From a virus, in the UHGV virus genome UHGV-0310186: 11,701 bases of DNA. The stretch is one strand, 5' to 3'. Position 1 is the first letter of the stretch. Each line of letters begins with the position of its first letter. Under the pieces are notes generated by a model that saw nothing but the letters and a program-made list of their open reading frames with translations, searched no databases and was not told the DNA's origin. Below are positions 1 through 11,701 of the stretch, piece by piece. The position numbers were made by a program, and so were the translations under genes.

Positions 1-102
1 GTGTGAAGTGGGGACGGACACCGCAAAAGAAATTCTCTATGCCCGTATGAAAGCCGAGCCCACGCCTGCGGATGAAGCCACGTCGTATGCCATCCGTTTT
101 CC
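1..102 (+). repeat. Inverted copy of an internal terminase-A segment; reverse complement of 834-935
   Basis: Direct comparison: window 1-102 equals the reverse complement of 834-935 with no mismatch seen. It reads in-frame as the terminase A peptide [34 protein letters not shown] on the plus strand. Confidence 0.8.
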
Positions 103-195
103 CAGATCAAGCTGCCAGCGTTGCACGGACACACGTAATGCAGCGTAGGCATACACCAGGCAGTCCAGCGCTTCGTTACGCCGCTTTTTGTTATC
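102..195 (-). repeat. Direct copy of terminase-A 3' segment 643-736 (1 mismatch)
   Basis: Window 102-195 matches 643-736 in the same orientation with one substitution (gtaatgcAgcg vs gtaatgcCgcg). On the minus strand it encodes [32 protein letters not shown]. Confidence 0.8.
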
Positions 196-397
196 TACAG
201 TAGCTGAACTGCAGGCGCTGCGTCAGGCGCGCCTTGATTTATTAACCGGTAAACGGGTGGTGTCTGTCCAGAAAGATGGACGAAGAATTGAATATACGGC
301 GGCCTCTCTGGATGAGCTTAACCGTGCGATCAATGATGCTGAGTTGGTACTGGGGACAACCCGCCGTCGCCGTCGTCCGCTGGGAGTGAGGTTATGA
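188..397 (+). CDS. W: gpW-like head completion / head-tail joining protein, plus-strand copy; native start replaced, ORF opens at a TTG inside the junction
   Basis: 69-aa ORF ...[66 protein letters not shown] resembles lambda gpW (68 aa; ...[24 protein letters not shown]...RRRGPAGFYV). Its stop overlaps a following ATG (ATGA) as at the lambda W-B junction. Confidence 0.55.
196..290 (+). repeat. Left arm of a 95-bp inverted repeat (W 5' coding region); partner 462-556
   Basis: 196-290 equals the reverse complement of 462-556 with one mismatch (acagtAgctg vs acagtCgctg). The arms flank a 171-bp unique segment (291-461). Confidence 0.85.
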
Positions 398-510
398 AAC
401 GAACGCCTGTCCTGATTGATGTGAACGGCGTTCCGCTTCGGGAGAGCCTCAGCTACAAATTCAATTCTTCGTCCATCTTTCTGGACAGACACCACCCGTT
501 TACCGGTTAA
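394..510 (+). pseudogene. B: Portal protein (lambda gpB-like) N-terminal fragment, cut after about 22 codons
   Basis: An ATG overlapping the W stop opens [21 protein letters not shown], similar in position and composition to the lambda gpB N-terminus (..GPDGMTSLREYAGY..). The frame then runs into the inverted W repeat and ends at 508-510. Confidence 0.4.
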
Positions 511-561
511 TAAATCAAGGCGCGCCTGACGCAGCGCCTGCAGTTCAGCGACTGTAACCAT
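462..561 (-). pseudogene. W: gpW 5' fragment on the minus strand (native ATG, first 33 codons), then runs into unrelated antisense sequence
   Basis: The ATG at 561-559 sits directly after the terminase A stop, in the lambda A-W position. It encodes [35 protein letters not shown]; homology is lost at about 462, the edge of the inverted repeat. Confidence 0.5.
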
Positions 562-2473
562 TCACTCCTCCGGACAGCTTCGCTGCCAGTTCTTTAAGGG
601 TTGGCCGGGTCGTCTCTTCTTCCCGGGATTTTGCCAGTACAGCCAGATCAAGCTGCCAGCGTTGCACGGACACACGTAATGCCGCGTAGGCATACACCAG
701 GCAGTCCAGCGCTTCGTTACGCCGCTTTTTGTTATCCCACAGCAGACGCATCTTTCCTTTTTCCCACTTCTCCACAAGCTCTTCCGCGACCAGTTGCTGC
801 GCCTCTGTCTGCGAAAAAATCTCCGGATCATCAGGAAAACGGATGGCATACGACGTGGCTTCATCCGCAGGCGTGGGCTCGGCTTTCATACGGGCATAGA
901 GAATTTCTTTTGCGGTGTCCGTCCCCACTTCACACAGATAAACGCCCCGCTGATTGCGGGTTTTCGGCATGGTGATCACCGGCTTGCCATAGACAGACGC
1001 GCCTTTTACCGGCAGCACACGGAAAACACCGTGTTTTTTTGACCTCTGGTAGACGATTTCACCATCGATCCCCCCGGTGTCCCAGCAGACACGGGAAATG
1101 GTCATTTCGGTGCCATCCGCATGGCGGTATTTTTTGTTGATCGCCGCATCCACACGTAACAGCGTCTCTTCCTCATCAGGACGCCCCATAATGATGATTT
1201 TATCCACCAGAAAAGCTTCCTCTCCCGGTGCCCATCCCCAGACATACATCTCAAAACGGTTTCGCTGCGAGTCAATGCCCGCCGTCAGATAAACCACCCG
1301 GGCAGGCACCGCCGCCGTGTAACGCACAACCTTATCCATCAGCACCTGGTGATCGAGTTTTTCGCCCACGGCCTCTTCCCAGGTCTCGCCCAGCGTGGTG
1401 TTCACAAAGGTTTTCAGGCCGTTGGAATCTTTCAGTGCATCCAGCCAGTCATAGACTATCTGTACCCAGGTGGTGAACGGACTGTACGCTGTCCAGATAT
1501 GGAACGTGATGGAGCGCGGCGGCGGAATTTCATTATCCGCGGCGCTGAAAAACGTCAGACCGTCACGGGTCCACATCCCCGTGTTTTCACAGATCCACCG
1601 CCCGTTGCTCTGGTCAAGCTCAGACTGATGGATCACGCAGCCATGATGTTCACAGAGGTAGAAAACGCTTTCGGGGCTGTCCTTCTCCCATTTAAGGCCA
1701 AAAGGCGTGGATTCATCGCCAAATTTCAGATACTGCTCCTCCCCACAGTGTGGGCAGGGCACATAAAAACGCATGAAATGCGCCGACTCGTTGGCCGCTT
1801 TTTCGATCTGGCAGGTGCCTTTGATTTTAGGCGTCGAGCCGCGAATGGATTTGGGCCATACAGAGCCCTCAATACGTTTATCCCCAAGCAGGGTTGGCGA
1901 ACCCTCTTTTTCGACATCCGGTTCGAACGAGGAAAGTTCGTCATAGCAGACCACGTCCACGGATTTTTCACGGTAGTTTTTGGCGGCAGCGCCGCCCAGG
2001 CACCAGAAACCCACACCCGATGAAAAGCGTTTCAGCGTGAGGGTATTGTCACGATGTTTACGCCCCAGCCATGGAAAAAGGTCTTTCAGACATGGCACAT
2101 CCCGAATCGTCGCCTCCACGTGAGACTTCATAAAATCTTCAGCGGCAGAATCCGTGGGCTGAAAAAGCAGACTGTTTCGGGATTTATGCTCAATAAAATA
2201 CCCGACCACCCCCAGCAACATCTTTGTATAGCCAACACGGGCAGATTTAATCAGATTAACAGTCCGGATCTGATCATTCCCCATGCTGTTCATGATGGCG
2301 ATCTGGAACGGCAGCGTTTTCCATTCTCCCTCACCATATGAAGATTCTTTAGGCAGATAATAATTTTGATCAGCCCATTCAACTGGCGTCACCGGCAATG
2401 CCCTTATCAGGGGCTGTAATGCTGTTGTGACAGCACTCATCATATTATTCAGTTGTTGCTCTGATATATTCAT
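545..2473 (-). CDS. A: Terminase large subunit (lambda gpA family)
   Basis: Long ORF that aligns end to end with lambda gpA as I recall it ([46 protein letters not shown]..., ...GIDSQ..., ...[13 protein letters not shown]...). Start placed at ATG 2473 (MNISEQ) rather than the upstream in-frame ATG at 2530. The start overlaps the 3' end of Nu1, as in lambda. Confidence 0.95.
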
Positions 2474-2954
2474 CGAGTAAATCCGGTAATTTATCCCCCG
2501 CCCGCGCACACTGATTTGCCCCCTTCGCAATAAGGGTTTTCAGATGGTCAAGATGGCGCGGTGTTAAATCAGGAAACTGTCGCTGCATGGATAAAGGGAT
2601 GGAATCAAGCGTACTGGATAACGCCATTGCCAGCTTGCTGAGGGCAAAAATACAGAACCCGGTATCAATAAGTTTTCCTTTTGACACCTCATTTTTTAAC
2701 TGCTGTGTAACAGCCTGTTCTGCTGTCAGTTCCCATCTGGCAATAAGCAATTTCTCCTCATAGTCGTCTTCGCTATCGCCATCAGGCACATCGTTTTTAC
2801 TTCTTCTCAGATACGATATGTAAAAATCGCGCCAGGCATCCAGATCCAGTTGCCCTCGCTTATTCGATATCGGGGCACCCGGCAATTTCTGCAATCTGCG
2901 AAGCTGGCGATCGGTCAGACTTAAATGCCTGGCAACTTCAGTCTGCGTAGCCAC
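2445..2954 (-). CDS. nu1: Terminase small subunit (lambda Nu1 family, divergent N-terminal DNA-binding domain)
   Basis: 169-aa ORF with a GTG start preceded by AGGTGAGGA. The C-terminal half resembles lambda Nu1 (TGFCIFALSKLAMALSSTLDSIPLSMQRQFPDLTPRHLDHLK...LLDEYI vs TAFCTFVLSRIAGEIASILDGLPLSVQRRFPELENRHVDFLK...LLSEYI). It lies immediately upstream of A, next to cos. Confidence 0.85.
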   Translation of the reverse strand: MATQTEVARHLSLTDRQLRRLQKLPGAPISNKRGQLDLDAWRDFYISYLRRSKNDVPDGDSEDDYEEKLLIARWELTAEQAVTQQLKNEVSKGKLIDTGFCIFALSKLAMALSSTLDSIPLSMQRQFPDLTPRHLDHLKTLIAKGANQCARAGDKLPDLLDEYIRATTE

Positions 2955-2996
2955 TCCTCACCTCGCAAAAACTCTCACTTCACAATCACAACAAAA

Positions 2997-3100
2997 CCGG
3001 TCATGTCCGGCTTACATGTCTATTTTTTGTGCATGTCCGGTTCACAGAAGACCTCTTTTTTTATTTTTCATATAGTTAACTTGAAGAGAAACCGGACATG
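2997..3100. promoter_or_regulatory. cosB-like terminase-binding region: three CATGTCCGG / CCGGACATG repeats plus an AT-rich spacer
   Basis: CATGTCCGG at 3002-3010 and 3032-3040, inverted CCGGACATG at 3092-3100, and an AT-rich tract at 3051-3090. Located between cosN and the Nu1 start, which is the cosB position in lambda (R3-I1-R2-R1 logic). Confidence 0.5.
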
Positions 3101-3170
3101 GTTCCCGGAAAATTTTCATAAATAGCGAAAACCCGCGAGGTCGCCGCCCCGTAACGGCCCGGATCGCCGG
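3101..3170 (-). other. cos: cos site core: cosN (cohesive-end sequence at 3138-3149) with flanking cosQ side
   Basis: The reverse complement of 3106-3150 reads GGGCGGCGACCTCGCGGGTTTTCGCTATTTATGAAAATTTTCCGG, which matches the first 45 nt of the lambda left end as I remember it. On the other side, ...CCGTTACGGGGCGGCGACCT matches the lambda right end. Confidence 0.8.
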
Positions 3171-3402
3171 AAAGGACCCGCAAAAATGATAATGGTTATC
3201 ATTTTCAATGTAGTCCGGTTTCTTCCACCATCGCACCGGACTGGCGACTATGAGGGGACAACGCCGCGCTCCGTTAACGCGGTAAACCCCGGTGTGTATC
3301 GTTTTTGATTATCCCCGCACACTCGCGCAGAGGAGTCTCCCTGTCGGGCTGCGGTCTCTGTTAATGAGGGAATACAGCGACGATACGGTGCATCAGCAAA
3401 AC

Positions 3403-3870
3403 TTAGTTCAGGCACTGAGTGCGGATATAGTCCTGTGCCCCTTCCAGCTGCTTCTGCATTGTCATCAACCGTTCTCTGAGGATGAAATAATCCCGTTCAG
3501 CGGTGTCTGCCAGTCGGGGGCCGGTTGCATTATCCACGCCGGAGGTGCCGGTGGCTTCACGCACGGTACCGGAGCAGGTGGCGTTGATCCGCAGGCGCTT
3601 ACGACCAGCGGCAACATCAGCACGCAGAGTTTCATTTTCAGCTCTCGCATCGGCTAATTCCCTCGAGTATCTGGCATCAAGTTCAGCGACATCACGCTGG
3701 CGTATCTGCATATCAGTAATTGTCGCGTTCGCCAGTTTCAGCTCACTGACTTTTTTATCGCGCTGCGCTTTGTAGGTGATGGCGTTATCGCGGTAATGAT
3801 TCAGCCCCAGACTAAGCACACCACAGGCTACCAGCAGGACAATAATCACCACACACAGAACACGGTTCAT
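3403..3870 (-). CDS. Rz: Rz i-spanin (inner-membrane spanin subunit)
   Basis: [75 protein letters not shown]... is close to lambda Rz (..[53 protein letters not shown]..). Start set at ATG 3870, not the upstream ATG at 3954. Confidence 0.9.
3465..3650 (-). CDS. Rz1: Rz1 o-spanin lipoprotein, embedded in Rz in another frame
   Basis: [61 protein letters not shown] resembles lambda Rz1 (MLKLKMMLCVMMLPLVVVGC...[32 protein letters not shown]). Lipobox LVVSAC, proline-rich. Confidence 0.85.
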
Positions 3871-3871
3871 A

Positions 3872-3958
3872 TCACCACCAACGGATTGCCCAGACCAGAA
3901 CAGCAATGGCCACAATACGAATGGCAAATGCCATTGCCCGAATAAGTTCAGCACTCAT
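3872..3958 (-). CDS. 28-aa hydrophobic peptide ORF, translationally coupled to Rz
   Basis: ATG at 3958; encodes [28 protein letters not shown]. Its TGA stop (3872-3874) lies 1 nt before the Rz ATG. Too short to appear in the supplied ORF track; coding status uncertain. Confidence 0.3.
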
Positions 3959-3969
3959 CTTTTTAAAGT

Positions 3970-4220
3970 TCACGATTTCAGCGCAATGACCAGTTTTGCC
4001 AGCCCATACAGCATCGGAGACACAGCAATACCAACAGCCACCCACTTAATAGCAAAAGCCAGCGCTCTGCTGATGTCATCAGTCACTGTCACCCCAGCAG
4101 CCCCGACGAAGACAACATCACCCAGGCGAGGGACAGAAAAAGAGCAACCAGCATTAGTGAAAATGAAATACCGACAATCACACACAGGACCTTTGCCGGC
4201 GTTATGAGTTTGTCTGACAT
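3970..4220 (-). pseudogene. Small membrane-protein gene, apparently frameshifted near 4095 in a G-rich run
   Basis: ATG at 4220 with an AAGGGG Shine-Dalgarno 5 nt upstream opens MSDKLITPAKVLCVIVGISFSLMLVALFLSLAWVMLSSSGLLG and stops at 4092-4094. Another frame continues directly with ..VTVTDDISRALAFAIKWVAVGIAVSPMLYGLAKLVIALKS to 3970. The motif RALAFAIKWVAVGIAV recurs as [14 protein letters not shown] in the 28-aa ORF downstream. Confidence 0.3.
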
Positions 4221-4390
4221 AGCTACCCCTTAATTGCCACAATTAACTGGGATACTACCCATAAAAAAGGGATGCTCCAGACCAGCAAAAATTTCCAGTT
4301 TGGTAATTGACTAATCATGAGTCGCAACTCCCTAATCAGTTTGCTAAAATCAATCAAGGCAGCCTCCCATAGCTTACTGCCATAAAAACA

Positions 4391-4423
4391 AAACCCCGCT
4401 TGCTGCCAACAAACGGGGTTTTT
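4391..4423. terminator. Bidirectional rho-independent terminator-like hairpin
   Basis: AAAACCCCG-(15-nt loop)-CGGGGTTTTT: GC stem CCCCG/CGGGG with an A-tract on one side and a T-tract on the other, so it could terminate either strand. About 90 nt downstream of the endolysin stop. Confidence 0.55.
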
Positions 4424-4512
4424 ACTTTTATTCACTTACATTTTGCCAGTTCGCAGGATTTCGTGTTATCCGTCCGCCTTGGCCAACGTCATTTATTAGC
4501 AAAATATTCTGC

Positions 4513-4875
4513 TTATCTGTCGATTCCCCAGCACGCCAGCGCGCTCTCCTGGTCACGACGGGATACCTGACCGTAACAGTTATTTGAGCGAATACGGCAG
4601 TCCCTGCCACCGTCCTTAATCCACCAGCGAATCGCCTCACACGCTCCCCTGCGGTCACCAGCATTCAGCCGCTTATAAAACGTCGACGGGAAACACTTAC
4701 CGGGGCCAATGTTATAGGGACAGAATGACGCTATACCCGCTTTCTGTGGTTCGGTCAGTGGAACTTTAATATTGCGCTCCACCCATGCCAGCGCCTTATC
4801 CCGTTCAATGGCATTAACCTGGTCGCATTTTTCCTTCGACAGTTTCATGCCCGGAATAACAGGTTTACCATCCAC
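4513..4875 (-). pseudogene. R: Endolysin (phage lysozyme, SAR-endolysin R21/933W-R type) 3' portion, detached from its 5' portion
   Basis: VDGKPVIPGMKLSKEKCDQVNAIERDKALAWVERNIKVPLTEPQKAGIASFCPYNIGPGKCFPSTFYKRLNAGDRRGACEAIRWWIKDGGRDCRIRSNNCYGQVSRRDQESALACWGIDR aligns with the C-terminal two-thirds of P21-type lysozymes. It lacks the SAR domain and catalytic Glu, and begins at a GTG created by the junction. Confidence 0.85.
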
Positions 4876-4915
4876 CTAATCCTCTACTGAAATTGTCAGA
4901 TATATTTCAGCCATC
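4832..4915 (-). repeat. Left composite inverted-duplication block: copy of element a (4832-4875) and element b (4877-4915)
   Basis: 4832-4875 is the exact reverse complement of 5173-5216 (44 bp); 4877-4915 is the exact reverse complement of 5218-5256 (39 bp). Element b contains the 7-bp palindromic arms CTGAAAT/ATTTCAG and a GAGGA Shine-Dalgarno. Confidence 0.9.
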
Positions 4916-5001
4916 AGGAAAAACGCCAGTGTCCTACCGCTGGCGGGCTGAAGATTTAACATATCCAGGGATTCGGAACCGATAAATCCTGATAAATATC
5001 C

Positions 5002-5226
5002 ATGAACACCAAAATCAAATATGGCCTGTCGGCTGCCGTTCTGGCGTTGATTGCCATCGGTGCGCCTGCGCCTGATATTCTCGACCAGTTTCTGGATGAA
5101 AAAGAAGGTAACCACACAACGGCATACCGTGATGGTGCGGGTATCTGGACCATCTGCCGCGGTGCCACAATGGTGGATGGTAAACCTGTTATTCCGGGCA
5201 TGAAACTGTCGAAGGAAGATGGCTGA
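5002..5226 (+). pseudogene. R: Endolysin 5' portion (SAR signal-anchor and catalytic E-8aa-D-5aa-T motif) ending at a premature stop
   Basis: MNTKIKYGLSAAVLALIAIGAPAPDILDQFLDEKEGNHTTAYRDGAGIWTICRGATMVDGKPVIPGMKLSKEDG*: a Gly/Ala-rich SAR domain followed by the lysozyme catalytic motif. It shares the 15 codons VDGKPVIPGMKLSKE with the minus-strand 3' portion, then runs into element b and stops. Confidence 0.85.
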
Positions 5227-5256
5227 AATATATCTGACAATTTCAGTAGAGGATTA
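5173..5256 (+). repeat. Right composite inverted-duplication block: element a (5173-5216) and element b (5218-5256)
   Basis: Same two elements as 4832-4915, each inverted. Order is a then b on this side, b then a when the left block is read on the minus strand. Confidence 0.9.
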
Positions 5257-5259
5257 ACC

Positions 5260-5574
5260 ATGCATAACGATCAACATAATTATGATTTATGCCTGCAAGC
5301 CATAAATGAGCGGGTAAAATCAGAGTGCCTCTTACTCCTCCCACAAGAACACGATGCAGTAAAATCCATTCAGGCTGAGCCGTATGGACATCTCACACCT
5401 GTGACTCTCGGCATTATCGCCAGAGCATTAACACAGCCCATGCTTATGCGTATTAAGACCAATATAAATAACTGGTTGAATGAAGAATTAAGCTACCTTG
5501 ATTGTGAGTGGGACAATCATTACGCAAAAACACAAAAAGAACGCATCTTCAGTCGATTATCCAGCAACAGATAA
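5260..5574 (+). CDS. Hypothetical protein (104 aa), plus strand, convergent with the 268-aa ORF
   Basis: ATG at 5260 preceded by AGAGGA inside element b; 104 codons, lower GC than the flanking phage genes. No family recognised by eye. Confidence 0.45.
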   Translation: MHNDQHNYDLCLQAINERVKSECLLLLPQEHDAVKSIQAEPYGHLTPVTLGIIARALTQPMLMRIKTNINNWLNEELSYLDCEWDNHYAKTQKERIFSRLSSNR

Positions 5575-5583
5575 CGAGCCACC

Positions 5584-6390
5584 TTATATACGCCCTTTCA
5601 GATAAGTCATCCCCGGCTGCATCCAGTCAACAGGTGCTTTCTTAAAGGGCGTATTATCAAAATCACGCAGAAGAGCCTCCAGCACAACTGCATCATTGTC
5701 AGCACCACTGGCCATCATTTCAATCTCAGCTGCTACCTGCAGATATCCCATGCAACGACCAATGCGCTTCATCAGCCCCTGCTTTTTATTGTTCTTCAGG
5801 TAATCAATGGCAAATTCAATGAGCGCCTCACTATGCTGGTGCGATGGCGGTGTTAATTTCCCATTTTCTGAGATGGTTATTTTCCCGCCATCTCCGTATA
5901 CAACAAAGGATGGCCGGTTACACTCCCATTCCTGATCTTTATCAGGTGCAGACGCAATAAAATAACGTTTATTTCCTTCCTCTCCGGCACTTTTAACCGT
6001 AATGGAGTACTCAGACTGCAGACAAGACGCCTCTTTTTCTGACCGCAGTGTTGACGGCGGCATCTTCAGAGAACAAGTAATTCTTCCCGGTAGCTTTCCT
6101 TTGTAGGTTATCAACACATCCTGCGCCTCTAAAATTACGGGGCGCTTTTCCGGCAACGGTTCGTTCCATTCACATAACCCGGCAGCAACATCCATGAAAA
6201 ACTGCTTCGCCTGCTTTTTCGCCTCAGCTTCGTAAAACTCCAGCGTGGCACCTTCAGTACGGTCAAGACTAATCGCCACATCTGGCAACAACAGCGACGC
6301 TTGCCCGTCACCTTCCGGCTTCACAGTAACAGTAACCTTATCCCCGTAATTATTTATCCCCTTAACAACCAGTTCATATTTTTTATTCAT
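5584..6390 (-). CDS. Hypothetical protein (268 aa) between holin and endolysin, translationally coupled to the holin
   Basis: ATG at 6390 lies 4 nt after the holin stop, with a GGGGAGAG Shine-Dalgarno inside the holin 3' end. Long uninterrupted ORF; no family recognised by eye. Confidence 0.65.
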   Translation of the reverse strand: MNKKYELVVKGINNYGDKVTVTVKPEGDGQASLLLPDVAISLDRTEGATLEFYEAEAKKQAKQFFMDVAAGLCEWNEPLPEKRPVILEAQDVLITYKGKLPGRITCSLKMPPSTLRSEKEASCLQSEYSITVKSAGEEGNKRYFIASAPDKDQEWECNRPSFVVYGDGGKITISENGKLTPPSHQHSEALIEFAIDYLKNNKKQGLMKRIGRCMGYLQVAAEIEMMASGADNDAVVLEALLRDFDNTPFKKAPVDWMQPGMTYLKGRI

Positions 6391-6394
6391 CACT

Positions 6395-6610
6395 TTACTC
6401 TCCCCGCGCCGCCTTACGCCGGTCCTCTTTGATTTTGAAATACAGGTTAGTCAGGTACGTCAGCAGCCCAAACAGCAGACTCCCCAGCACGCCTATTGCC
6501 GCCCACTGAGACGGGGAAACCCTGTCCAGCAACTGCAGGAACCAGTAGCCCGTTCCCACCGCTGACGTGGTGTATGACACACCTGTTGTGATTTTTTCCA
6601 TCTGGTACAT
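6395..6610 (-). CDS. S: Pinholin (phage 21 S21 family) with dual-start motif
   Basis: [71 protein letters not shown] is near-identical in pattern to P21 S21 (..[51 protein letters not shown]). Two in-frame starts (MYQM..., MEK...) fit a holin/antiholin pair. GGGAGA Shine-Dalgarno. Confidence 0.9.
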
Positions 6611-6686
6611 ACCCCGTCTCCCGTTATCCGGAAGCTCACAACAATATAAAGACCACCGGCACACACCGATGGTCCCTTGCGCAGGC

Positions 6687-6932
6687 TTACATCATCATGT
6701 CGCTGTCAGGTGTGGGTTCACCGCCATCTGAAGCACTCCCGTCACCCGCGATACCTTCCGGCTCCGGAACCGCTGGTACGCCCAGCAGCTCATCCAGAAT
6801 GGCATCCACTTCTGCATCAAGACGCGACTCAAGGTTCTGGCGGAGTTTCTGTTTCAGTGCGCTCAGGACTTCTTCAGAGCGCAGGACTTCCTTCACTGCC
6901 TCAGCAGTGACCAGGGATGTGATTTCTGACAT
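6687..6932 (-). CDS. Hypothetical acidic protein (81 aa)
   Basis: Internal ATG at 6932 of the 139-aa track ORF gives [81 protein letters not shown]. Sits between NanS-p and the holin. Confidence 0.4.
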
Positions 6933-6969
6933 GGGATTTTCTCGTTGAAAGGTGTTGTCAAGAAAGTGA

Positions 6970-7152
6970 CTACGGAATGAGCGGATCTTCGGGTTTGCTT
7001 CCGGCTGACTGACTGGCGCTGATTCTCTCAGCGGCCCTTTTATCAATCTGCCTGCGCCAGAAATCGCGCACTGCCCTGTACCCACCCGAAAGAAGATACA
7101 TAACACAGACTGCCATACAGAAGTACAGCATTACCTGATGAATAAATGTCAT
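6970..7152 (-). CDS. Hypothetical small membrane protein (60 aa)
   Basis: ATG at 7152; hydrophobic N-terminal segment (VMLYFCMAVCVMYLLSGGY) then a basic tail. Weak ribosome-binding site. Confidence 0.3.
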   Translation of the reverse strand: MTFIHQVMLYFCMAVCVMYLLSGGYRAVRDFWRRQIDKRAAERISASQSAGSKPEDPLIP

Positions 7153-7250
7153 AATTTCTTACCGTTATGGTTGACAATGAGAACTGTTTTCATTTAGAAA
7201 TGATTGATGTCGAAAGCATCTTTTCTTTACATTCTCCATTGGGATTACCT

Positions 7251-7287
7251 CCGCCAGCTTCCATTCCTGCCGCTGGCGGCTTTTTTT
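7251..7287 (+). terminator. Hairpin plus T7 tract oriented for the plus strand, directly 3' of the NanS-p stop
   Basis: CCGCCAGC-(13-nt loop)-GCTGGCGG followed by CTTTTTTTAT. On the minus strand the A-tract precedes the stem, so for the NanS-p transcript it would be a 3' stabilising hairpin rather than a canonical terminator. Confidence 0.4.
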
Positions 7288-7288
7288 A

Positions 7289-9250
7289 TCATGCCGCGAT
7301 GTCCGCGTTGTTCACTTCCACCTTCACACTGTCAATCAGCAGCGTATATGTCGCCGCCTTTGATATGCCTGTCAGTTGCAGTTTGTCCGCCGCCCCTGAT
7401 GCCGGAGATTTCACCAGTGTGAACGGCGTCCCCCGTTTCTCATCCAGTACCGGCGTCACCTGAATGCTGTTGTTTCCGGCAAACTCAAAAGCCAGTGTGT
7501 GCCATCCGTTATCAAAGACCCCGAACGTTTCCAGCTTCGCATTCGGCTTCTTGTGGTGCATCGCGTTCAGGTTCGTCGCATCCGTCTGCAGAAAGAAGGA
7601 CATCAGCATGTCGTTGCCTTCCTCTGCCAGCGTCACTCCCTCCGGCAGGGACGACAACTGCCAGTAAATGCCCAGGGCAAACTGATTCGGCACCAGTGAA
7701 CCCGGCAACTTAAACCGTACGCTCACACGTCCCCCCTTCTTCAGTAACTCCACTCCCTGTCCGGCTGCATCATGCTCCAGAAACCAGATGTGGTTTTCCG
7801 GTTTATTCAGTTGCAGGGCCTTACCTCCCGTAGCCCCCGCATCACTGACCACCGCTTCAGCAATGTTTTTGTTAACATTGTCTCCGCTCGCCGGTTTGTG
7901 ATAATAGCGCCAGCCCTGTGATGCCAGGTCTTCGCCGGACGCCAGCAGACTCATCAGGGTTCGGTTACTGACCGGGGCTTCCGGCTCTCTCTCCGTACCT
8001 TCACCGGAAGGTCCGGTGGGCTTCACCGTATCAGGCTGTTTTCCGGTAATGAATTCAGCGTTTCTCCCGGCATGCACAAGAATCGCCGTTGCCAGACGGT
8101 CGGAAATAATCCCACGACGTGCCCATGATCCAAAATGCGTTTTACGGTCGGCCGTCGTCCAGGTTTTGGCGTCCGTTCGACCACCGGCTCCGTAATACCC
8201 AATATCCGCAACATCCGGATCTTCTGACGGCTCGTTGGTACCCACATTTCGCCCGTTTTCATCCGTCATAAACGGCACAAAGAAGATTTTTTTTGCGGAT
8301 TTCGTCTTGTATGCACCATACACCGCATCGTATTGCGAAGAATAAGTCTGCTTCCAGTAGTAGGTCGTGTCGCCACAAATCCAGGGAACCGATGACGGAG
8401 AGCCCCCGAGACACTGACCTCCGAATTCCGACAGGTCAGAACGATATTTTTCCACCATGGAATCAAACAGCCCCGGCTGAGTGGCGTATGCACCCTGTTT
8501 CAAATCAAACTCGCCCTGCATCCAGACCACTGCAAGCAGAATATTTTTAGGGTTGGCCTTCAGTGCGGCCTGAGTACGGGTAAGCAGGTCCTTGTACAGT
8601 GGCTTATCAACACCCCAGCGTGCCGAGGTCTCGCTTGCGCCGGTGGATTCGCTGAAGGTACCTTCATCGCCCGCCAAAAATGCAGAACCACCACGGCAGC
8701 ACGGAACCAGAAGAATACCGGCATTCGCCGGAATAAACGGCAACAATTTCTTCGCGATATGTAATCCCTGCCCCACGCATCCATACTGAGCTGCGCTGGC
8801 TTTCGGGTGTGAAAACTTACTCAAATCCTGAACATCATGCAGGCAGTGGTCCGCAGGAATAATGTCATTGTAGTTACAGGACGCACCACCCGGCGTGACA
8901 GTGCTGCGACGCGCCAGCTGTTTAATACGCGGGTCCGGACGGTCATATGTCTCCGGCAGCGGAAGCCCTTCACCATACGCCATACCGTTTGACTGCCCGG
9001 CCAGGGCAACAACAAAGTAATACTCCGGGTTGCTGGTGGTGCTGATAACTGCGCCTTCTCCATCCGACGGCTTCACCACCACAGGTGTGGTGACATCACC
9101 TTCCGCCGCAATGGCCTGCATCAGGGTATAAGGCGTGATGGCCACCGGACTGCCAAATGGCTGCCACCCCTCCTTCAGTTTTTGTGTCAGTCGTTTCGCA
9201 AGGTCTGACGGCGATGCCGCCCTGACAACATCATAGTGTTTAAATGCCAT
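7289..9250 (-). CDS. nanS-p: Prophage sialate O-acetylesterase NanS-p-like protein (DUF1737-type N-terminus, SGNH/SASA esterase core, C-terminal carbohydrate-binding region)
   Basis: A roughly 650-aa ORF sitting between the tRNA/toxin locus and the holin, which is where Stx-type prophages carry nanS-p (933W L0105/Z1466-like). Start set at ATG 9250 (MAFKHY, GGTGGAAAG Shine-Dalgarno) rather than 9265. Assignment is by recalled architecture and size, not a run alignment. Confidence 0.75.
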   Translation of the reverse strand: MAFKHYDVVRAASPSDLAKRLTQKLKEGWQPFGSPVAITPYTLMQAIAAEGDVTTPVVVKPSDGEGAVISTTSNPEYYFVVALAGQSNGMAYGEGLPLPETYDRPDPRIKQLARRSTVTPGGASCNYNDIIPADHCLHDVQDLSKFSHPKASAAQYGCVGQGLHIAKKLLPFIPANAGILLVPCCRGGSAFLAGDEGTFSESTGASETSARWGVDKPLYKDLLTRTQAALKANPKNILLAVVWMQGEFDLKQGAYATQPGLFDSMVEKYRSDLSEFGGQCLGGSPSSVPWICGDTTYYWKQTYSSQYDAVYGAYKTKSAKKIFFVPFMTDENGRNVGTNEPSEDPDVADIGYYGAGGRTDAKTWTTADRKTHFGSWARRGIISDRLATAILVHAGRNAEFITGKQPDTVKPTGPSGEGTEREPEAPVSNRTLMSLLASGEDLASQGWRYYHKPASGDNVNKNIAEAVVSDAGATGGKALQLNKPENHIWFLEHDAAGQGVELLKKGGRVSVRFKLPGSLVPNQFALGIYWQLSSLPEGVTLAEEGNDMLMSFFLQTDATNLNAMHHKKPNAKLETFGVFDNGWHTLAFEFAGNNSIQVTPVLDEKRGTPFTLVKSPASGAADKLQLTGISKAATYTLLIDSVKVEVNNADIAA

Positions 9251-9510
9251 GGTTCTTTCCACCATCTGAAAAATAATTCTTTAAAATACCTGACATGTAA
9301 TACAGAAAAAACACAAAACCATACCTTAAATAAAAACCTCATCATCAAGCAGATATGCATGGATAAACTACAAGACGAGATATAAACCACCCTGCATTTA
9401 AATAAACAATAAACAACATCAGAAAAATAATTCTGCTCTATGGTTTACATTCAAAAATATCATTTATACTTTTCAGAACATCACCAGCAAGACATAAACA
9501 AGGAAACTAA

Positions 9511-9846
9511 ATGAAGTGGATTGTGATTGATACAGTTATCCAGCCATCATGCGGAATATCTTTTTCAGTCATATGGAGTAAAATAAAATTAATAATCTGG
9601 TATCAATCGGATGCTTTCTTACCTCCTGAAAGTATATTTACACTGACTCACACAGGTATCATGCTCAATAACAAAGTGCTACCTGTAACCATTTACAACG
9701 TAGCACCATTCAATAAAACATTCTGGAATTTAATCAAAAACAGCCAGGAATGTCCTACAAATACAGATAACGTATTGAATGAATGCTTTAATAACCGTTG
9801 CACTCTGCAAATATGTCCTTATGGACTAAAACAACAAAGTCCATAA
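9511..9846 (+). CDS. Hypothetical protein (111 aa) in an AT-rich moron, opposite strand to the late operon
   Basis: ATG preceded by AAGGAAACTAA; about 245 bp of very AT-rich upstream sequence (9266-9510); low GC, Cys/Asn-rich product. No family recognised by eye. Confidence 0.5.
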
Positions 9847-9880
9847 GGAGTTTACTCACATCTGACAAAATCAATATAAA

Positions 9881-9902
9881 CAGCCCCTCCGGAGAGGGGC
9901 TG
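9881..9902 (-). terminator. GC-rich hairpin; terminator-like for the minus strand
   Basis: CAGCCCCTC-CGGA-GAGGGGCTG is a perfect 9-bp stem. On the minus strand it is followed by TTTATATTGATTTTG; on the plus strand no U-tract follows. Confidence 0.4.
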
Positions 9903-10293
9903 GAGAGTGGCGCTATGTGCCATTGCATGGTGCCGGGTGCCTCCCGGTGAATTCAGTACCAGCACCTGAATCCGCGATTATCCCATATACCTACTCGCTG
10001 ATTGCCCCTCCGCACAGGGGGATTCACCATGCCAGTTTCTTTTAACAAACTCCCCGCAAACCAGACAACAGTCAACCGCCTGAATTGTGAAGTATTTAAA
10101 AATTTCTCCCGCTAACTGATACCCGGCTAACAGTCTGGCGTTTTCTTTTTCAGCAACGGGAAAGCAACAACCACCACACCCGCCACCAGCACACCGTCAG
10201 CCAGCACTGACATTATCCGGCTGCTGCAATGCCACTCACAAAAACAGTAAGCAATCACTTTTTACCGTAACAAGTGATAATCCAGATATGTAT

Positions 10294-10620
10294 CTACCCC
10301 AGATGAGTAATCCGAAGTTCATCCATACCACAGGTCCTGGCTATTCTGTTGTACTCCTGAACAAGAGCAAATAATTCTGAATTAGCAACCATGAACTCAT
10401 CGCAAACCCTCTGAATAGCATCACTATTCAGAATAATAACGTCTCTTCCCGAAAGACGATCAGGAGTACAGAACAAAACTGTCAAACGGCTGAAGGCCTT
10501 TGCTCGTGCTGCATTGACTATATCAATACGCTGCCTAAGGATGAAACACCCCGACGCCTCATCAATATTCACTCTACCCACACCATATGAATGATAAATA
10601 TTTAATGCTGAAAAAACCAT
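10294..10620 (-). CDS. Hypothetical protein (about 108 aa) in the low-GC region downstream of the tRNAs
   Basis: ORF in the position occupied by stxA in Stx phages but unrelated in sequence. Start uncertain (ATG 10620 or TTG 10647). A possible sigma70-like promoter (TTGTCA-17-AAGTAT) lies upstream on the minus strand. Confidence 0.3.
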   Translation of the reverse strand: MVFSALNIYHSYGVGRVNIDEASGCFILRQRIDIVNAARAKAFSRLTVLFCTPDRLSGRDVIILNSDAIQRVCDEFMVANSELFALVQEYNRIARTCGMDELRITHLG

Positions 10621-10760
10621 TAGACCGTATAACAAACACTCAATCAATACTTAACAGAACTTTTATTTTTGACAAACATATAATATTTTCAACAATATCC
10701 TGAGCCAGGTATATTTCAGTATAAGGCTCTGCCGGAAGGAATCTGGAAGAATGAATATAG

Positions 10761-10834
10761 CGCGCTGTACTGGATTCGAACCAGTGACCGATTGCTTAGA
10801 AGGCAATTGCTCTGTCCGGCTGAGCTAACAACGC
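10761..10834 (-). tRNA. tRNA-Arg (anticodon TCT), phage-borne, no encoded CCA
   Basis: Hand-folded cloverleaf: acceptor GCGTTGT/ACAGCGC, D-stem GCTC/GAGC, anticodon stem ATTGC/GCAAT with loop CTTCTAA, T-stem ACTGG/CCAGT with loop TTCGAAT. Confidence 0.85.
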
Positions 10835-10934
10835 TGAATACCGATAATGGACCGCCATCGGGGACCCGCCCCCGCACCAACAACCCTGTTATCGCGTCGT
10901 CTGCTCTTCCTGATAAGCTAATGGCGGTTTGTGA

Positions 10935-11010
10935 TGGTGGCCCTTGCTGGATTTGAACCAGCGACCTGGCGATTATGAGTCGCTCGCTCTCACCACTGAG
11001 CTAAAGGGCC
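10935..11010 (-). tRNA. tRNA with CAT anticodon, most similar to tRNA-Ile2 (ileX/ileZ type) rather than elongator Met; CCA encoded
   Basis: GGCCCTTTAGCTCAGTGGTGAGAGCGAGCGACTCATAATCGCCAGGTCGCTGGTTCAAATCCAGCAAGGGCCACCA folds as a cloverleaf (acceptor GGCCCTT/AAGGGCC, anticodon loop CTCATAA, T-loop TTCAAAT) and is close to E. coli ileX as recalled. Confidence 0.85.
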
Positions 11011-11046
11011 GGGAGCAGAATAATAACGGTCCGTAATTAATTCCGC

Positions 11047-11071
11047 AATAAAAAACCCGCTCGGCGGCGGG
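11047..11071 (-). terminator. tR'-like rho-independent terminator downstream of pR'
   Basis: On the minus strand: CCCGC-CGCCGA-GCGGG followed by TTTTTTATT. Lies about 45-65 nt downstream of the predicted pR' start and upstream of the tRNAs. Confidence 0.7.
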
Positions 11072-11108
11072 TTGTAGAAACTCTTCTAACGTCAGGCATA
11101 AAAGGCCC

Positions 11109-11148
11109 ATCGTTATGACGAATTTACCACAGATTCCGGAAAAATCAA
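11109..11148 (-). promoter_or_regulatory. pR' late promoter with qut-like pause element
   Basis: On the minus strand: TTGATT (-35), 16-nt spacer, TAAATT (-10), then cgtcat and AACGATGGG. This mirrors lambda pR' (TAAATT ... AACGATGGG), where the -10-like AACGAT in the early transcribed region drives the sigma-dependent pause used by Q. Confidence 0.6.
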
Positions 11149-11153
11149 CCTTG

Positions 11154-11522
11154 TTACCTAGTTACCTTTTTTAACTGCCGCTCAGCCCATGCTTCTTCAA
11201 TATCAAACCGGGTCACCAGCGCATCATAGAATTTCTTAACTGTTTTTTCCCATGACGCGCGTGTTATCTGGTTTGTCACCTCGCATATAGCATTAAATGC
11301 CTCCGTTGATGGTAGTCTTTCATAGCCACGACCACCACAACGCTGGCAGTCTCTGATAACAGGCATACCACGTTTTACCGACTCTTCACGGTGAATGGCG
11401 ACACCACGCCCACGGCAATCCTTACAGGCGGTGGAAACCTCACCCTTTCCGCCACACTCCGGACAGGCAACTTTTACCACCTCCCTGACTTTTTTCCATT
11501 CTTCCCAGTAAGACGGATACAC
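11154..11522 (-). CDS. Q: Antiterminator Q (lambda Q family), zinc-finger C-terminal domain; N-terminus short or disrupted
   Basis: ...ACPECGGKGEVSTACKDCRGRGVAIHREESVKRGMPVIRDCQRCGGRGYERLPSTEAFNAI...WEKTVKKFYDALV...KKVTR parallels the lambda Q C-terminus (ARCRDCHGTGRAV...ECGRCKGVGYSRMPASAAYRAV...WSRTVKPLYDALV...LNAVTR). The only in-frame start is GTG at 11522, with an in-frame stop at 11619-11621, so the product is about 90 aa shorter than lambda Q. Confidence 0.6.
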   Translation of the reverse strand: MYPSYWEEWKKVREVVKVACPECGGKGEVSTACKDCRGRGVAIHREESVKRGMPVIRDCQRCGGRGYERLPSTEAFNAICEVTNQITRASWEKTVKKFYDALVTRFDIEEAWAERQLKKVTR

Positions 11523-11701
11523 ACCTTTCGTACACTTTGCCCATACCGGCGGCTTACCATCCGGATACTGGACCTTGTTTGTGGCATCAGTATGAATGAC
11601 AGGGTGCGGGCAACAGAATTACTGGCAGATTATGCACTCAGTCGGTGCGATCGTGTGGCGGCGTTGAGAAAACTTCCGGCAGAAATAAAACCGGTAGTGA
11701 T

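What the first reader, a model, noticed from the sequence alone, without database searches (positions are those of the whole stretch)
4832..5256. SAR-endolysin split by a 340-bp inversion flanked by inverted duplicates of its own ends; a 44-bp inverted repeat could restore the gene
The N-terminal portion (5002-5216, plus strand: SAR domain and catalytic motif) and the C-terminal portion (4875-4513, minus strand) join conceptually into one 177-aa P21/933W-type lysozyme and share the 15 codons VDGKPVIPGMKLSKE. The layout is rc(a)-rc(b)-[upstream + N-term]-a-b, with a = 44 bp and b = 39 bp, each present twice in opposite orientation. That is the signature of a segment (4877-5216) inverted with duplication of both termini, as in staggered-break or template-switch inversions. 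The junctions also create new translation signals: element b supplies an RBS and GTG start for the C-terminal fragment on one side and the RBS for the 104-aa ORF on the other. As assembled there is no intact endolysin, so the prophage should be lysis-defective. Recombination between the two 44-bp copies would re-invert 4876-5172 and regenerate an intact minus-strand endolysin, so this could be either a fixed lesion or a low-frequency ON/OFF switch. No invertase gene is present in the window.
Basis: partly seen in the sequence, partly recalled or inferred. Interest (0 to 1): 0.62.

Follow-up and report, generated by a model that had tools for sequence, protein, structure and literature searches.

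The report
Scrambled prophage endolysin, probably a chimeric assembly
The phage lysis gene really is split by a small inversion with duplicated ends, but this arrangement is found nowhere else and is one of six similar strand flips in the same 11.7 kb, so it is most likely a chimeric or misassembled sequence, or at most a one-off lesion, and not a genetic switch.

Summary
Two perfect inverted repeats (46 nt, 4831-4876/5172-5217; 39 nt, 4877-4915/5218-5256) flank a 341-bp inverted segment that splits a 177-aa P21-type SAR endolysin.

Undoing the inversion and removing the 85 duplicated bases gives a sequence identical to intact prophages in complete E. coli genomes such as SCU-484. Neither junction occurs in any of 5,426 complete E. 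coli genomes, in the phage, plasmid, viral, metagenome or species-representative collections, or in a 153-billion-gene index.

The event is not isolated. Against the SCU-484 prophage the window is seven segments of alternating strand with six strand-flip junctions. They also break gpW/portal and the Q antiterminator, and two lie about 100 nt from the window ends.

All jumps are 165-302 nt, with 0-1 nt of microhomology. The only two private base changes sit in the small rearranged pieces. There is no recombinase, and the repeats are absent from all relatives.

My reading is a non-programmed, copy-based double strand switch (dupINVdup). It is most likely a chimeric-template or assembly artefact (about 0.6), less likely a genuine recent complex rearrangement (about 0.35). 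An ON/OFF switch is not supported, although recombination across the 46-nt repeats would restore the gene on paper.

The parts
4513..4875 (-). C-terminal fragment of the endolysin R (120-aa ORF, GTG start created by the junction context)
   Evidence: PF00959 profile 27-125; collinear with and identical to SCU-484 lysozyme WP_001092910.1
4831..4876 (.). Left copy of repeat a (46 nt, R codons about 58-72), retained at the left breakpoint
   Evidence: 100% complementary to 5172-5217
4877..5217 (.). The inverted segment (341 bp): rc(b), R upstream region, R codons 1-72. It equals the reverse complement of SCU-484 locus L013 10799-11139
   Evidence: 341/341 identical on the opposite strand
4877..4915 (.). 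Left copy of repeat b (39 nt; intergenic, contains an 8-bp-stem hairpin and the GAGG RBS of the 104-aa ORF)
5002..5226 (+). N-terminal fragment of R (74 aa): SAR segment and catalytic E35/D44/T50, ending in 2 junction-derived codons and a stop
   Evidence: PF00959 profile 2-39
5172..5217 (.). Right copy of repeat a
5218..5256 (.). Right copy of repeat b, in its ancestral position upstream of the 104-aa ORF
5260..5574 (+). 104-aa ORF of unknown function, divergent neighbour of R. Intact and in its ancestral place
   Evidence: 6,573 collection blocks; beside an intact 177-aa lysozyme in all 10 places shown; no Pfam
1..102 (.). Flipped terL piece (rc of L013 6802-6903), duplicate of window 834-935
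102..195 (.). Second terL piece (L013 6611-6704), direct duplicate of window 643-736 with a private C>A at 142
196..458 (.). Flipped gpW plus portal start (rc of L013 6262-6524). 98 nt duplicate window 459-556. Private C>A at 202
11583..11701 (.). Flipped piece of the Q antiterminator gene (rc of L013 17572-17690), after a 225-nt jump
6395..6610 (-). P21-type class II holin (pinholin), the functional partner of the SAR endolysin
   Evidence: (PF04971)
3403..3870 (-). Rz spanin, with embedded Rz1 at 3465-3650, intact

Best explanation
The split endolysin is a private, non-programmed 'inversion with duplicated ends' (dupINVdup) of an otherwise intact R gene. The copying path ran up to the end of repeat a and jumped 295 nt ahead onto the opposite strand. 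It copied back through the R 5' end and past its starting point (duplicating 46 nt). It then jumped 302 nt back to the original strand, 39 nt before its first landing (duplicating 39 nt). It is one of six such short-range strand flips in this 11.7-kb sequence. The most likely origin is therefore a chimeric template or a misassembly in whatever produced this contig, not a rearrangement maintained in a phage or bacterial population. What is shown: the anatomy, the ancestral state, uniqueness in the databases searched, and the multiplicity of junctions. What is inferred: that the joins arose in vitro or in the assembly rather than in a cell. As assembled, R, gpW/portal and Q are all broken, and nothing here works as a switch.
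For: (1) The ancestor rebuilt by un-inverting and dropping 85 bp matches NZ_CP026723.1 exactly over 1,116 bp. The window maps to SCU-484 as seven alternating-strand segments, 100% identical over 4,418 and 6,365 bp. (2) There are six strand-flip junctions. All jumps are 165-302 nt. Overlaps are 98/46/39 nt and gaps are 86/97/106 nt. Two junctions lie 102 and 119 nt from the window ends. (3) Neither R junction is found in 5,426 complete E. coli genomes. The left junction is also absent from plasmids and from the species-representative and metagenome scans. Viral contigs lack both R junctions and the 458|459 junction. None of the six junctions is in the 202 fetched loci. The phage collection has no match covering 80% of the region. 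Junction-specific ORFs are absent from the gene index. (4) The only two differences from SCU-484 in 11.7 kb are private C>A changes at 142 and 202, both inside the small rearranged pieces (P about 9e-4 by chance). This fits low-quality chimeric sequence. (5) Breakpoints fall at unremarkable positions, with no excess hairpin potential. (6) Long-read assemblies of amplified DNA are documented to carry many inverted chimeras and false duplications.
Against: No reads are available, so an artefact cannot be demonstrated. The junctions have 0-1 nt of microhomology. The classic MDA mispriming mechanism gives at least 2 nt in 93.5% of nearby inverted chimeras (PMC1855051), so six of six junctions without it is very unlikely under that mechanism (about 7.5e-8). 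The overlapping duplications and close spacing also rule out random blunt ligation. The sequence is otherwise error-free. The breakpoints do not coincide with the edges of the 1.49-kb repeat shared by co-resident prophages in a related strain, so a simple repeat-induced misjoin is not supported. dupINVdup and delINVdel are real in vivo classes of structural variant.
Confidence: 0.6

Rival explanations
1. This is a genuine, very recent in vivo complex rearrangement of a resident lambdoid prophage: serial strand switching or multi-break repair, a small-scale 'chromoanasynthesis-like' event. It left a lysis- and packaging-defective cryptic prophage. The R lesion is fixed and non-functional.
For: dupINVdup and delINVdel are recognised in vivo variant classes attributed to replicative repair or to simultaneous break repair. 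The flanking sequence is perfect. Point changes cluster next to the junctions, as expected from error-prone repair synthesis. The duplications require copying, and the 165-302 nt spacing requires a local process. A prophage is under no selection to stay intact.
Against: Six independent-looking junctions in 11.7 kb with zero other divergence is improbable for in vivo events. Two of the junctions are at the window ends. Microhomology is absent, unlike MMBIR/FoSTeS. E. coli has no canonical NHEJ (established knowledge). The arrangement is not seen in any of 5,426 genomes or the other collections.
Confidence: 0.35
2. This is a reversible ON/OFF lysis switch. Recombination between the 46-nt inverted copies flips 4877-5171 and regenerates an intact endolysin in a subpopulation.
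For: In silico inversion across the 46-nt copies restores R exactly, with its native upstream region. 46 nt exceeds the minimal homology for RecA- or Red-dependent recombination (established knowledge), so rare reversion is physically possible.
Against: The repeats are absent from all relatives, so nothing has been selected. There is no recombinase in the window or in the identical prophage annotation. The 'OFF' state yields truncated fragments, not alternative products. The same window carries equivalent flips in gpW/portal, terL and Q that no switch would explain. Even with R restored, Q, gpW and portal remain broken as assembled.
Confidence: 0.03
3. This is a misjoin of short contigs or a graph tangle caused by paralogous co-resident prophages: pieces ordered along a reference and concatenated in the wrong orientation without trimming overlaps.
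For: The segments tile the reference in order with overlaps or gaps, and alternate ones are flipped. Related strains carry two copies of the R-ORF104 module.
Against: The R breakpoints lie inside, not at the edges of, the 1.49-kb block identical between the paralogues. The overlaps are not a constant k (98/46/39). The three left pieces are in reversed order. The variant bases of the small pieces are not found in any paralogue of 5,426 genomes. All six joins flip strand (1/64 if orientation were random).
Confidence: 0.05

Closest known systems
dupINVdup / delINVdel complex structural variants (human genomics; bacterial counterpart: remodelled tandem inversion duplications described in Salmonella and E. 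coli)
   Same: An inverted middle segment flanked by inverted duplications of both ends (46 and 39 nt) at R. An inverted 94-nt piece flanked by 86- and 97-nt deletions at the left end. Both are explainable by two strand switches.
   Different: There is no junction microhomology, the scale is tiny (341 bp), and six junctions sit in 11.7 kb. An in vivo origin is unproven. The link to bacterial TIDs is from my own knowledge (Kugelberg et al. 2010) and was not tested here.
Inverted chimeras of whole-genome amplification (phi29 MDA) and their carry-over into long-read assemblies
   Same: Strand-inverting joins between segments a few hundred bases apart, several per long molecule, producing false inversions and duplications in assemblies.
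   Different: MDA joins between nearby inverted segments show at least 2 nt of complementarity in 93.5% of cases. Here it is 0 of 6. The distances here are confined to 165-302 nt.
Programmed DNA inversion switches (Hin/Gin/Cin/Pin, fimS, Bacteroides invertons, intragenic invertons)
   Same: A segment bounded by inverted repeats whose inversion changes a coding sequence (preprint 10.1101/2023.03.11.532203).
   Different: The repeats are duplicates of the gene's own sequence, created by the event and absent from all relatives. There is no invertase, no alternative functional product, and no evidence of two orientations.
Phage P21 / 933W-type lysis cassette (pinholin S21 + SAR endolysin R21 + Rz/Rz1)
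   Same: The reconstructed R is a 177-aa PF00959 lysozyme with an N-terminal Gly/Ala-rich SAR-like segment and E35-D44-T50. It matches PDB 3hde/3hdf at E about 3e-16. The holin is PF04971, and Rz/Rz1 are present.
   Different: As assembled, R is split. A DUF1327 gene and a divergent 104-aa ORF sit between S and R, as in Stx2 phage 86.

Membership tests
Programmed invertible switch (inverton / invertase system) | Inverted repeats flank the invertible segment | tested here: met
   46-nt and 39-nt perfect inverted repeats
Programmed invertible switch (inverton / invertase system) | Repeats and invertible layout conserved at the orthologous locus in relatives | tested here: not met
   0 of 5,426 complete genomes and 0 of 135 genomes with near-identical halves carry either junction. 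All relatives have one copy each of a and b and an intact R
Programmed invertible switch (inverton / invertase system) | Site-specific recombinase encoded nearby | tested here: not met
   No recombinase among the window ORFs or in the RefSeq annotation of the 100%-identical prophage across the window's extent
Programmed invertible switch (inverton / invertase system) | Both orientations present in one population | not testable with these tools
   No reads available. Across databases only the ancestral, repeat-free state exists
dupINVdup by replicative template switching (MMBIR/FoSTeS type) | Inverted segment with inverted duplications at both ends | tested here: met
   Window 4877-5217 is the reverse complement of L013 10799-11139, overlapping its neighbours by 46 and 39 nt
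dupINVdup by replicative template switching (MMBIR/FoSTeS type) | Microhomology at the breakpoint junctions | tested here: not met
   0 nt at both R junctions; 1,0,0,0,0,0 nt over all six
dupINVdup by replicative template switching (MMBIR/FoSTeS type) | Arose in a living cell and is inherited | not testable with these tools
   Needs reads, PCR or a second isolate
MDA-type inverted chimera | Strand-inverting joins between segments <10 kb apart, often several per molecule | tested here: met
   Six joins, 165-302 nt apart (PMC1855051)
MDA-type inverted chimera | At least 2 nt of complementarity at the join (93.5% of nearby inverted chimeras) | tested here: not met
   0 of 6 junctions
SAR endolysin of the P21 R family (the ancestral gene) | Phage_lysozyme (PF00959) fold with E-8x-D-5x-T catalytic triad | tested here: met
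   PF00959 at E 2.8e-25; E35, D44 and T50 read from the translation; PDB 3hde/3hdf at E about 3e-16
SAR endolysin of the P21 R family (the ancestral gene) | N-terminal weakly hydrophobic signal-anchor-release segment and a pinholin partner | tested here: inconclusive
   The segment YGLSAAVLALIAIGAPAP was judged by inspection only. The holin matches PF04971 'P21 holin S'. Membrane release was not tested

The most novel reading that the evidence does not exclude
The six blunt, short-range (165-302 nt) strand-flip joins are real and arose in one cell in a single catastrophic, homology-independent, copy-based event in a resident prophage. That would be a bacterial miniature of chromoanasynthesis. 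It would have left, by accident, a 46-nt inverted repeat through which rare RecA- or Red-mediated inversion could resurrect the endolysin.
Probability: 0.2. Interest if true: 0.45.

Novelty: not a real feature. Interest (0 to 1): 0.1.

Why it matters
If it is an artefact, its value is practical. Prophage 'pseudogenes', 'intragenic invertons' and inverted repeats called from single assemblies can be products of chimeric templates. A simple comparison with near-identical relatives exposes them. If it is real, it would be a rare base-resolved example of a multi-junction, microhomology-free dupINVdup/delINVdel rearrangement in E. coli, inactivating lysis, packaging and late-gene antitermination in one stroke. 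That would be interesting to people who study illegitimate recombination, but it is not a new biological system.

Tried and rejected
(1) I tried to find the source or a second example of the junctions, and every search came back empty. These were exact-pattern scans of viral, species-representative and metagenome collections, BLAST of junction-spanning 80-mers against E. coli genomes (both junctions) and plasmids (left junction), exact look-ups of the three junction-specific ORFs, and a scan of 202 fetched loci. (2) I searched a flank pattern just outside the right end to catch a masked source record. Only ordinary prophages with the ancestral layout turned up, with no runs of N. (3) Paralogue mixing: the variant 94- and 263-nt pieces have no 100% match in 5,426 genomes, so they are not borrowed from another prophage. 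(4) Repeat-boundary misassembly: in strain 266917_2 the two co-resident prophages are identical from L013 10466 to 11957, and the R breakpoints lie well inside this block. (5) Hairpin- or quasipalindrome-driven switching: there is no excess folding energy at the 12 breakpoints. Element b has only a weak hairpin (-4.3 kcal/mol) and element a has none. (6) Classic MDA mispriming and MMBIR both predict junction microhomology, which is absent. (7) Random blunt ligation is excluded by the proximity and the overlaps of the joined pieces (inference). (8) Naive concatenation of read pairs has the wrong geometry for the second R junction (inference).

Full report
OBSERVATION. The repeats are real and exact. 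The repeat finder reports a 46-nt pair (4831-4876 / 5172-5217) and a 39-nt pair (4877-4915 / 5218-5256). Both are 100% complementary, they abut, and they lie in the order rc(a)-rc(b) ... a-b. About 2e-16 such pairs are expected by chance.

The plus-strand ORF 5002-5226 (74 aa) and the minus-strand ORF 4513-4875 (120 aa, GTG start) share DGKPVIPGMKLSKE. They cover Pfam PF00959 profile positions 2-39 and 27-125 respectively.

CONTEXT. The window is the late region of a lambdoid, Stx-phage-86-like prophage, read on the minus strand. In order it carries:
- Q antiterminator (partial), then two tRNAs
- IraM-like ORF (plus strand)
- SASA/NanS-p-type esterase, DUF1378, DUF826
- P21-type holin (PF04971) and a DUF1327 ORF
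- a divergent 104-aa ORF, then R
- Rz/Rz1, terS, terL and gpW

The reconstructed R has a Gly/Ala-rich N-terminal segment and E35/D44/T50. It matches PDB 3hde/3hdf at E about 3e-16. I know those two entries to be phage P21 R, but the tool's table lists them only as 'Lysozyme'.

ANCESTRAL STATE. Megablast of 4450-5650 against 5,426 complete E. coli genomes found no record covering 80% of the query. The 15 best were 100% identical in two pieces spanning 1,116 bp, which is 1,201 minus 85. I rebuilt the ancestor as window[1-4876] + rc(4916-5171) + window[5218-]. That gave an exact 1,116-bp match to NZ_CP026723.1 with an intact 177-aa lysozyme.

The 104-aa ORF occurs in 6,573 collection blocks. In all ten places shown it sits 128 bp from an intact 177-aa lysozyme. 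So the window is the derived state: P-A-M-B-Q became P-A | B'M'A' | B-Q, with A = 46 nt, M = 256 nt and B = 39 nt. This is the 'dupINVdup' class of variant.

UNIQUENESS.
- Junction-spanning 80-mers hit 135 genomes by halves only, never across the join.
- Plasmids gave no hit across the left junction, and phages gave no match covering 80% of the region.
- Exact scans of viral, species-representative and metagenome contigs gave nothing.
- The three junction-specific ORFs are absent from the 153-billion-gene index.
- A flank pattern retrieved 190 or so related loci, and none has any of the six junctions.

THE KEY NEW FINDING. The R event is not alone. Against strain SCU-484 (L013) the window resolves into seven segments of strictly alternating strand:
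- 1-102 = rc 6802-6903
- 102-195 = 6611-6704
- 196-458 = rc 6262-6524
- 459-4876 = 6427-10844
- 4877-5217 = rc 10799-11139
- 5218-11582 = 11101-17465
- 11583-11701 = rc 17572-17690

The two long segments are 100% identical to SCU-484 (4,418 and 6,365 nt). The six junctions jump 191, 180, 165, 295, 302 and 225 nt. Adjacent pieces overlap by 98, 46 and 39 nt, or leave gaps of 86, 97 and 106 nt. The internal duplicates are also seen directly in the window.

As assembled, gpW is truncated and duplicated, the portal gene is reduced to its first 65 nt, and Q loses its 5' part, in addition to R. Two junctions lie 102 and 119 nt from the window ends. The left 458 nt fold back into terL sequence already present further right.

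JUNCTION ANATOMY. Microhomology is 1, 0, 0, 0, 0, 0 nt. That is what random blunt joins give (P about 0.36). It is not what 3'-end mispriming gives. Lasken and Stockwell found at least 2 nt in 93.5% of inverted MDA chimeras less than 10 kb apart (PMC1855051), which makes six of six without it about 7.5e-8. It also departs from the MMBIR expectation.

The overlaps mean that copying was involved. The proximity of the joined pieces means the process was local, so random ligation is excluded. Breakpoints show no excess secondary structure. The only two differences from SCU-484 in the whole window are C>A changes at 142 and 202. Both are inside the small rearranged pieces and both are absent from all 5,426 genomes, so they are errors or new mutations, not paralogue sequence. 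In a related strain the R-ORF104 module is a 1.49-kb exact repeat between two prophages, but the R breakpoints lie inside that block.

INTERPRETATION. The repeats are by-products of the rearrangement, not recombination sites. They are absent from every relative, and no recombinase is encoded in the window or in the identical prophage's annotation. The 'OFF' state gives only truncated fragments.

Inversion across the 46-nt copies would indeed restore R exactly; inversion across the 39-nt copies would not. That is an accidental possibility, at the low rates expected for 46 nt of homology (established knowledge). Q, gpW and portal would still be broken.

The window therefore shows six blunt short-range strand flips in 11.7 kb, two of them at the window ends, with otherwise perfect identity, private base changes only in the scrambled pieces, and total absence elsewhere. 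This points first to a chimeric template or assembly artefact (about 0.6). Long-read assemblies of amplified DNA are documented to contain many inverted chimeras and false duplications. A genuine, very recent complex rearrangement of a cryptic prophage remains possible (about 0.35). A programmed switch is very unlikely (about 0.03).

The agent of the joins is unidentified. The narrow distance range and the lack of microhomology fit none of the textbook mechanisms cleanly, and I have recorded this as unexplained.

VERDICT. The switch hypothesis is not supported. The feature is most likely not biological. Interest is low. Read-level evidence from the source assembly would settle it.

Noticed in passing
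window 1-458: The left end is a scramble of three flipped or duplicated pieces of terL, gpW and the portal start. 1-102 is the reverse complement of 834-935, 102-195 repeats 643-736, and 196-293 is the reverse complement of 459-556. This creates a fold-back with a 165-nt spacer and an internal inversion flanked by 86- and 97-nt deletions.
   Followed up: yes
window 11582|11583: The right end flips strand inside the Q antiterminator gene after a 225-nt jump. Q is truncated as assembled.
   Followed up: yes
window 142 and 202: These are the only two differences from the SCU-484 prophage in 11.7 kb. Both are C>A on the plus strand, both lie in the small rearranged pieces, and both are absent from 5,426 complete genomes.
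   Followed up: yes
all six junctions: Jump distances are confined to 165-302 nt with 0-1 nt of microhomology. This narrow length scale fits neither MDA mispriming nor MMBIR and is unexplained.
   Followed up: partly
window 5584-6393 (-): A 269-aa ORF with an N-terminal DUF1327 domain is open and intact here, and in Stx2 phage 86 (orf5). RefSeq annotates only its first third, as a 'YdfR family' pseudogene, in the identical prophages.
   Followed up: partly
window 5223-5246 (and inverted copy 4887-4910): A small hairpin (8-bp stem, 10-nt loop, -4.3 kcal/mol as DNA) lies in the 128-bp divergent intergenic region between R and the 104-aa ORF. Its function is unknown.
   Followed up: partly
window 10760-10834 and 10935-11010 (-): Two phage-borne tRNA genes lie between Q and the esterase gene: Arg (TCT), and a CAT-anticodon tRNA that ARAGORN calls Met and RefSeq calls Ile. 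This is typical of Stx-like lambdoid phages.
   Followed up: no
L001 and L203 (NZ_CP026723.1, two loci): Strain 266917_2 carries two lambdoid prophages that share an exactly identical 1.49-kb block (R, the 104-aa ORF and part of the DUF1327 gene) inside otherwise 90-97% identical late regions. This suggests recent exchange of the lysis module between prophages.
   Followed up: partly
window 9511-9846 (+): An IraM/PmrD-like anti-adapter gene sits as a plus-strand moron between the tRNAs and the esterase gene.
   Followed up: no
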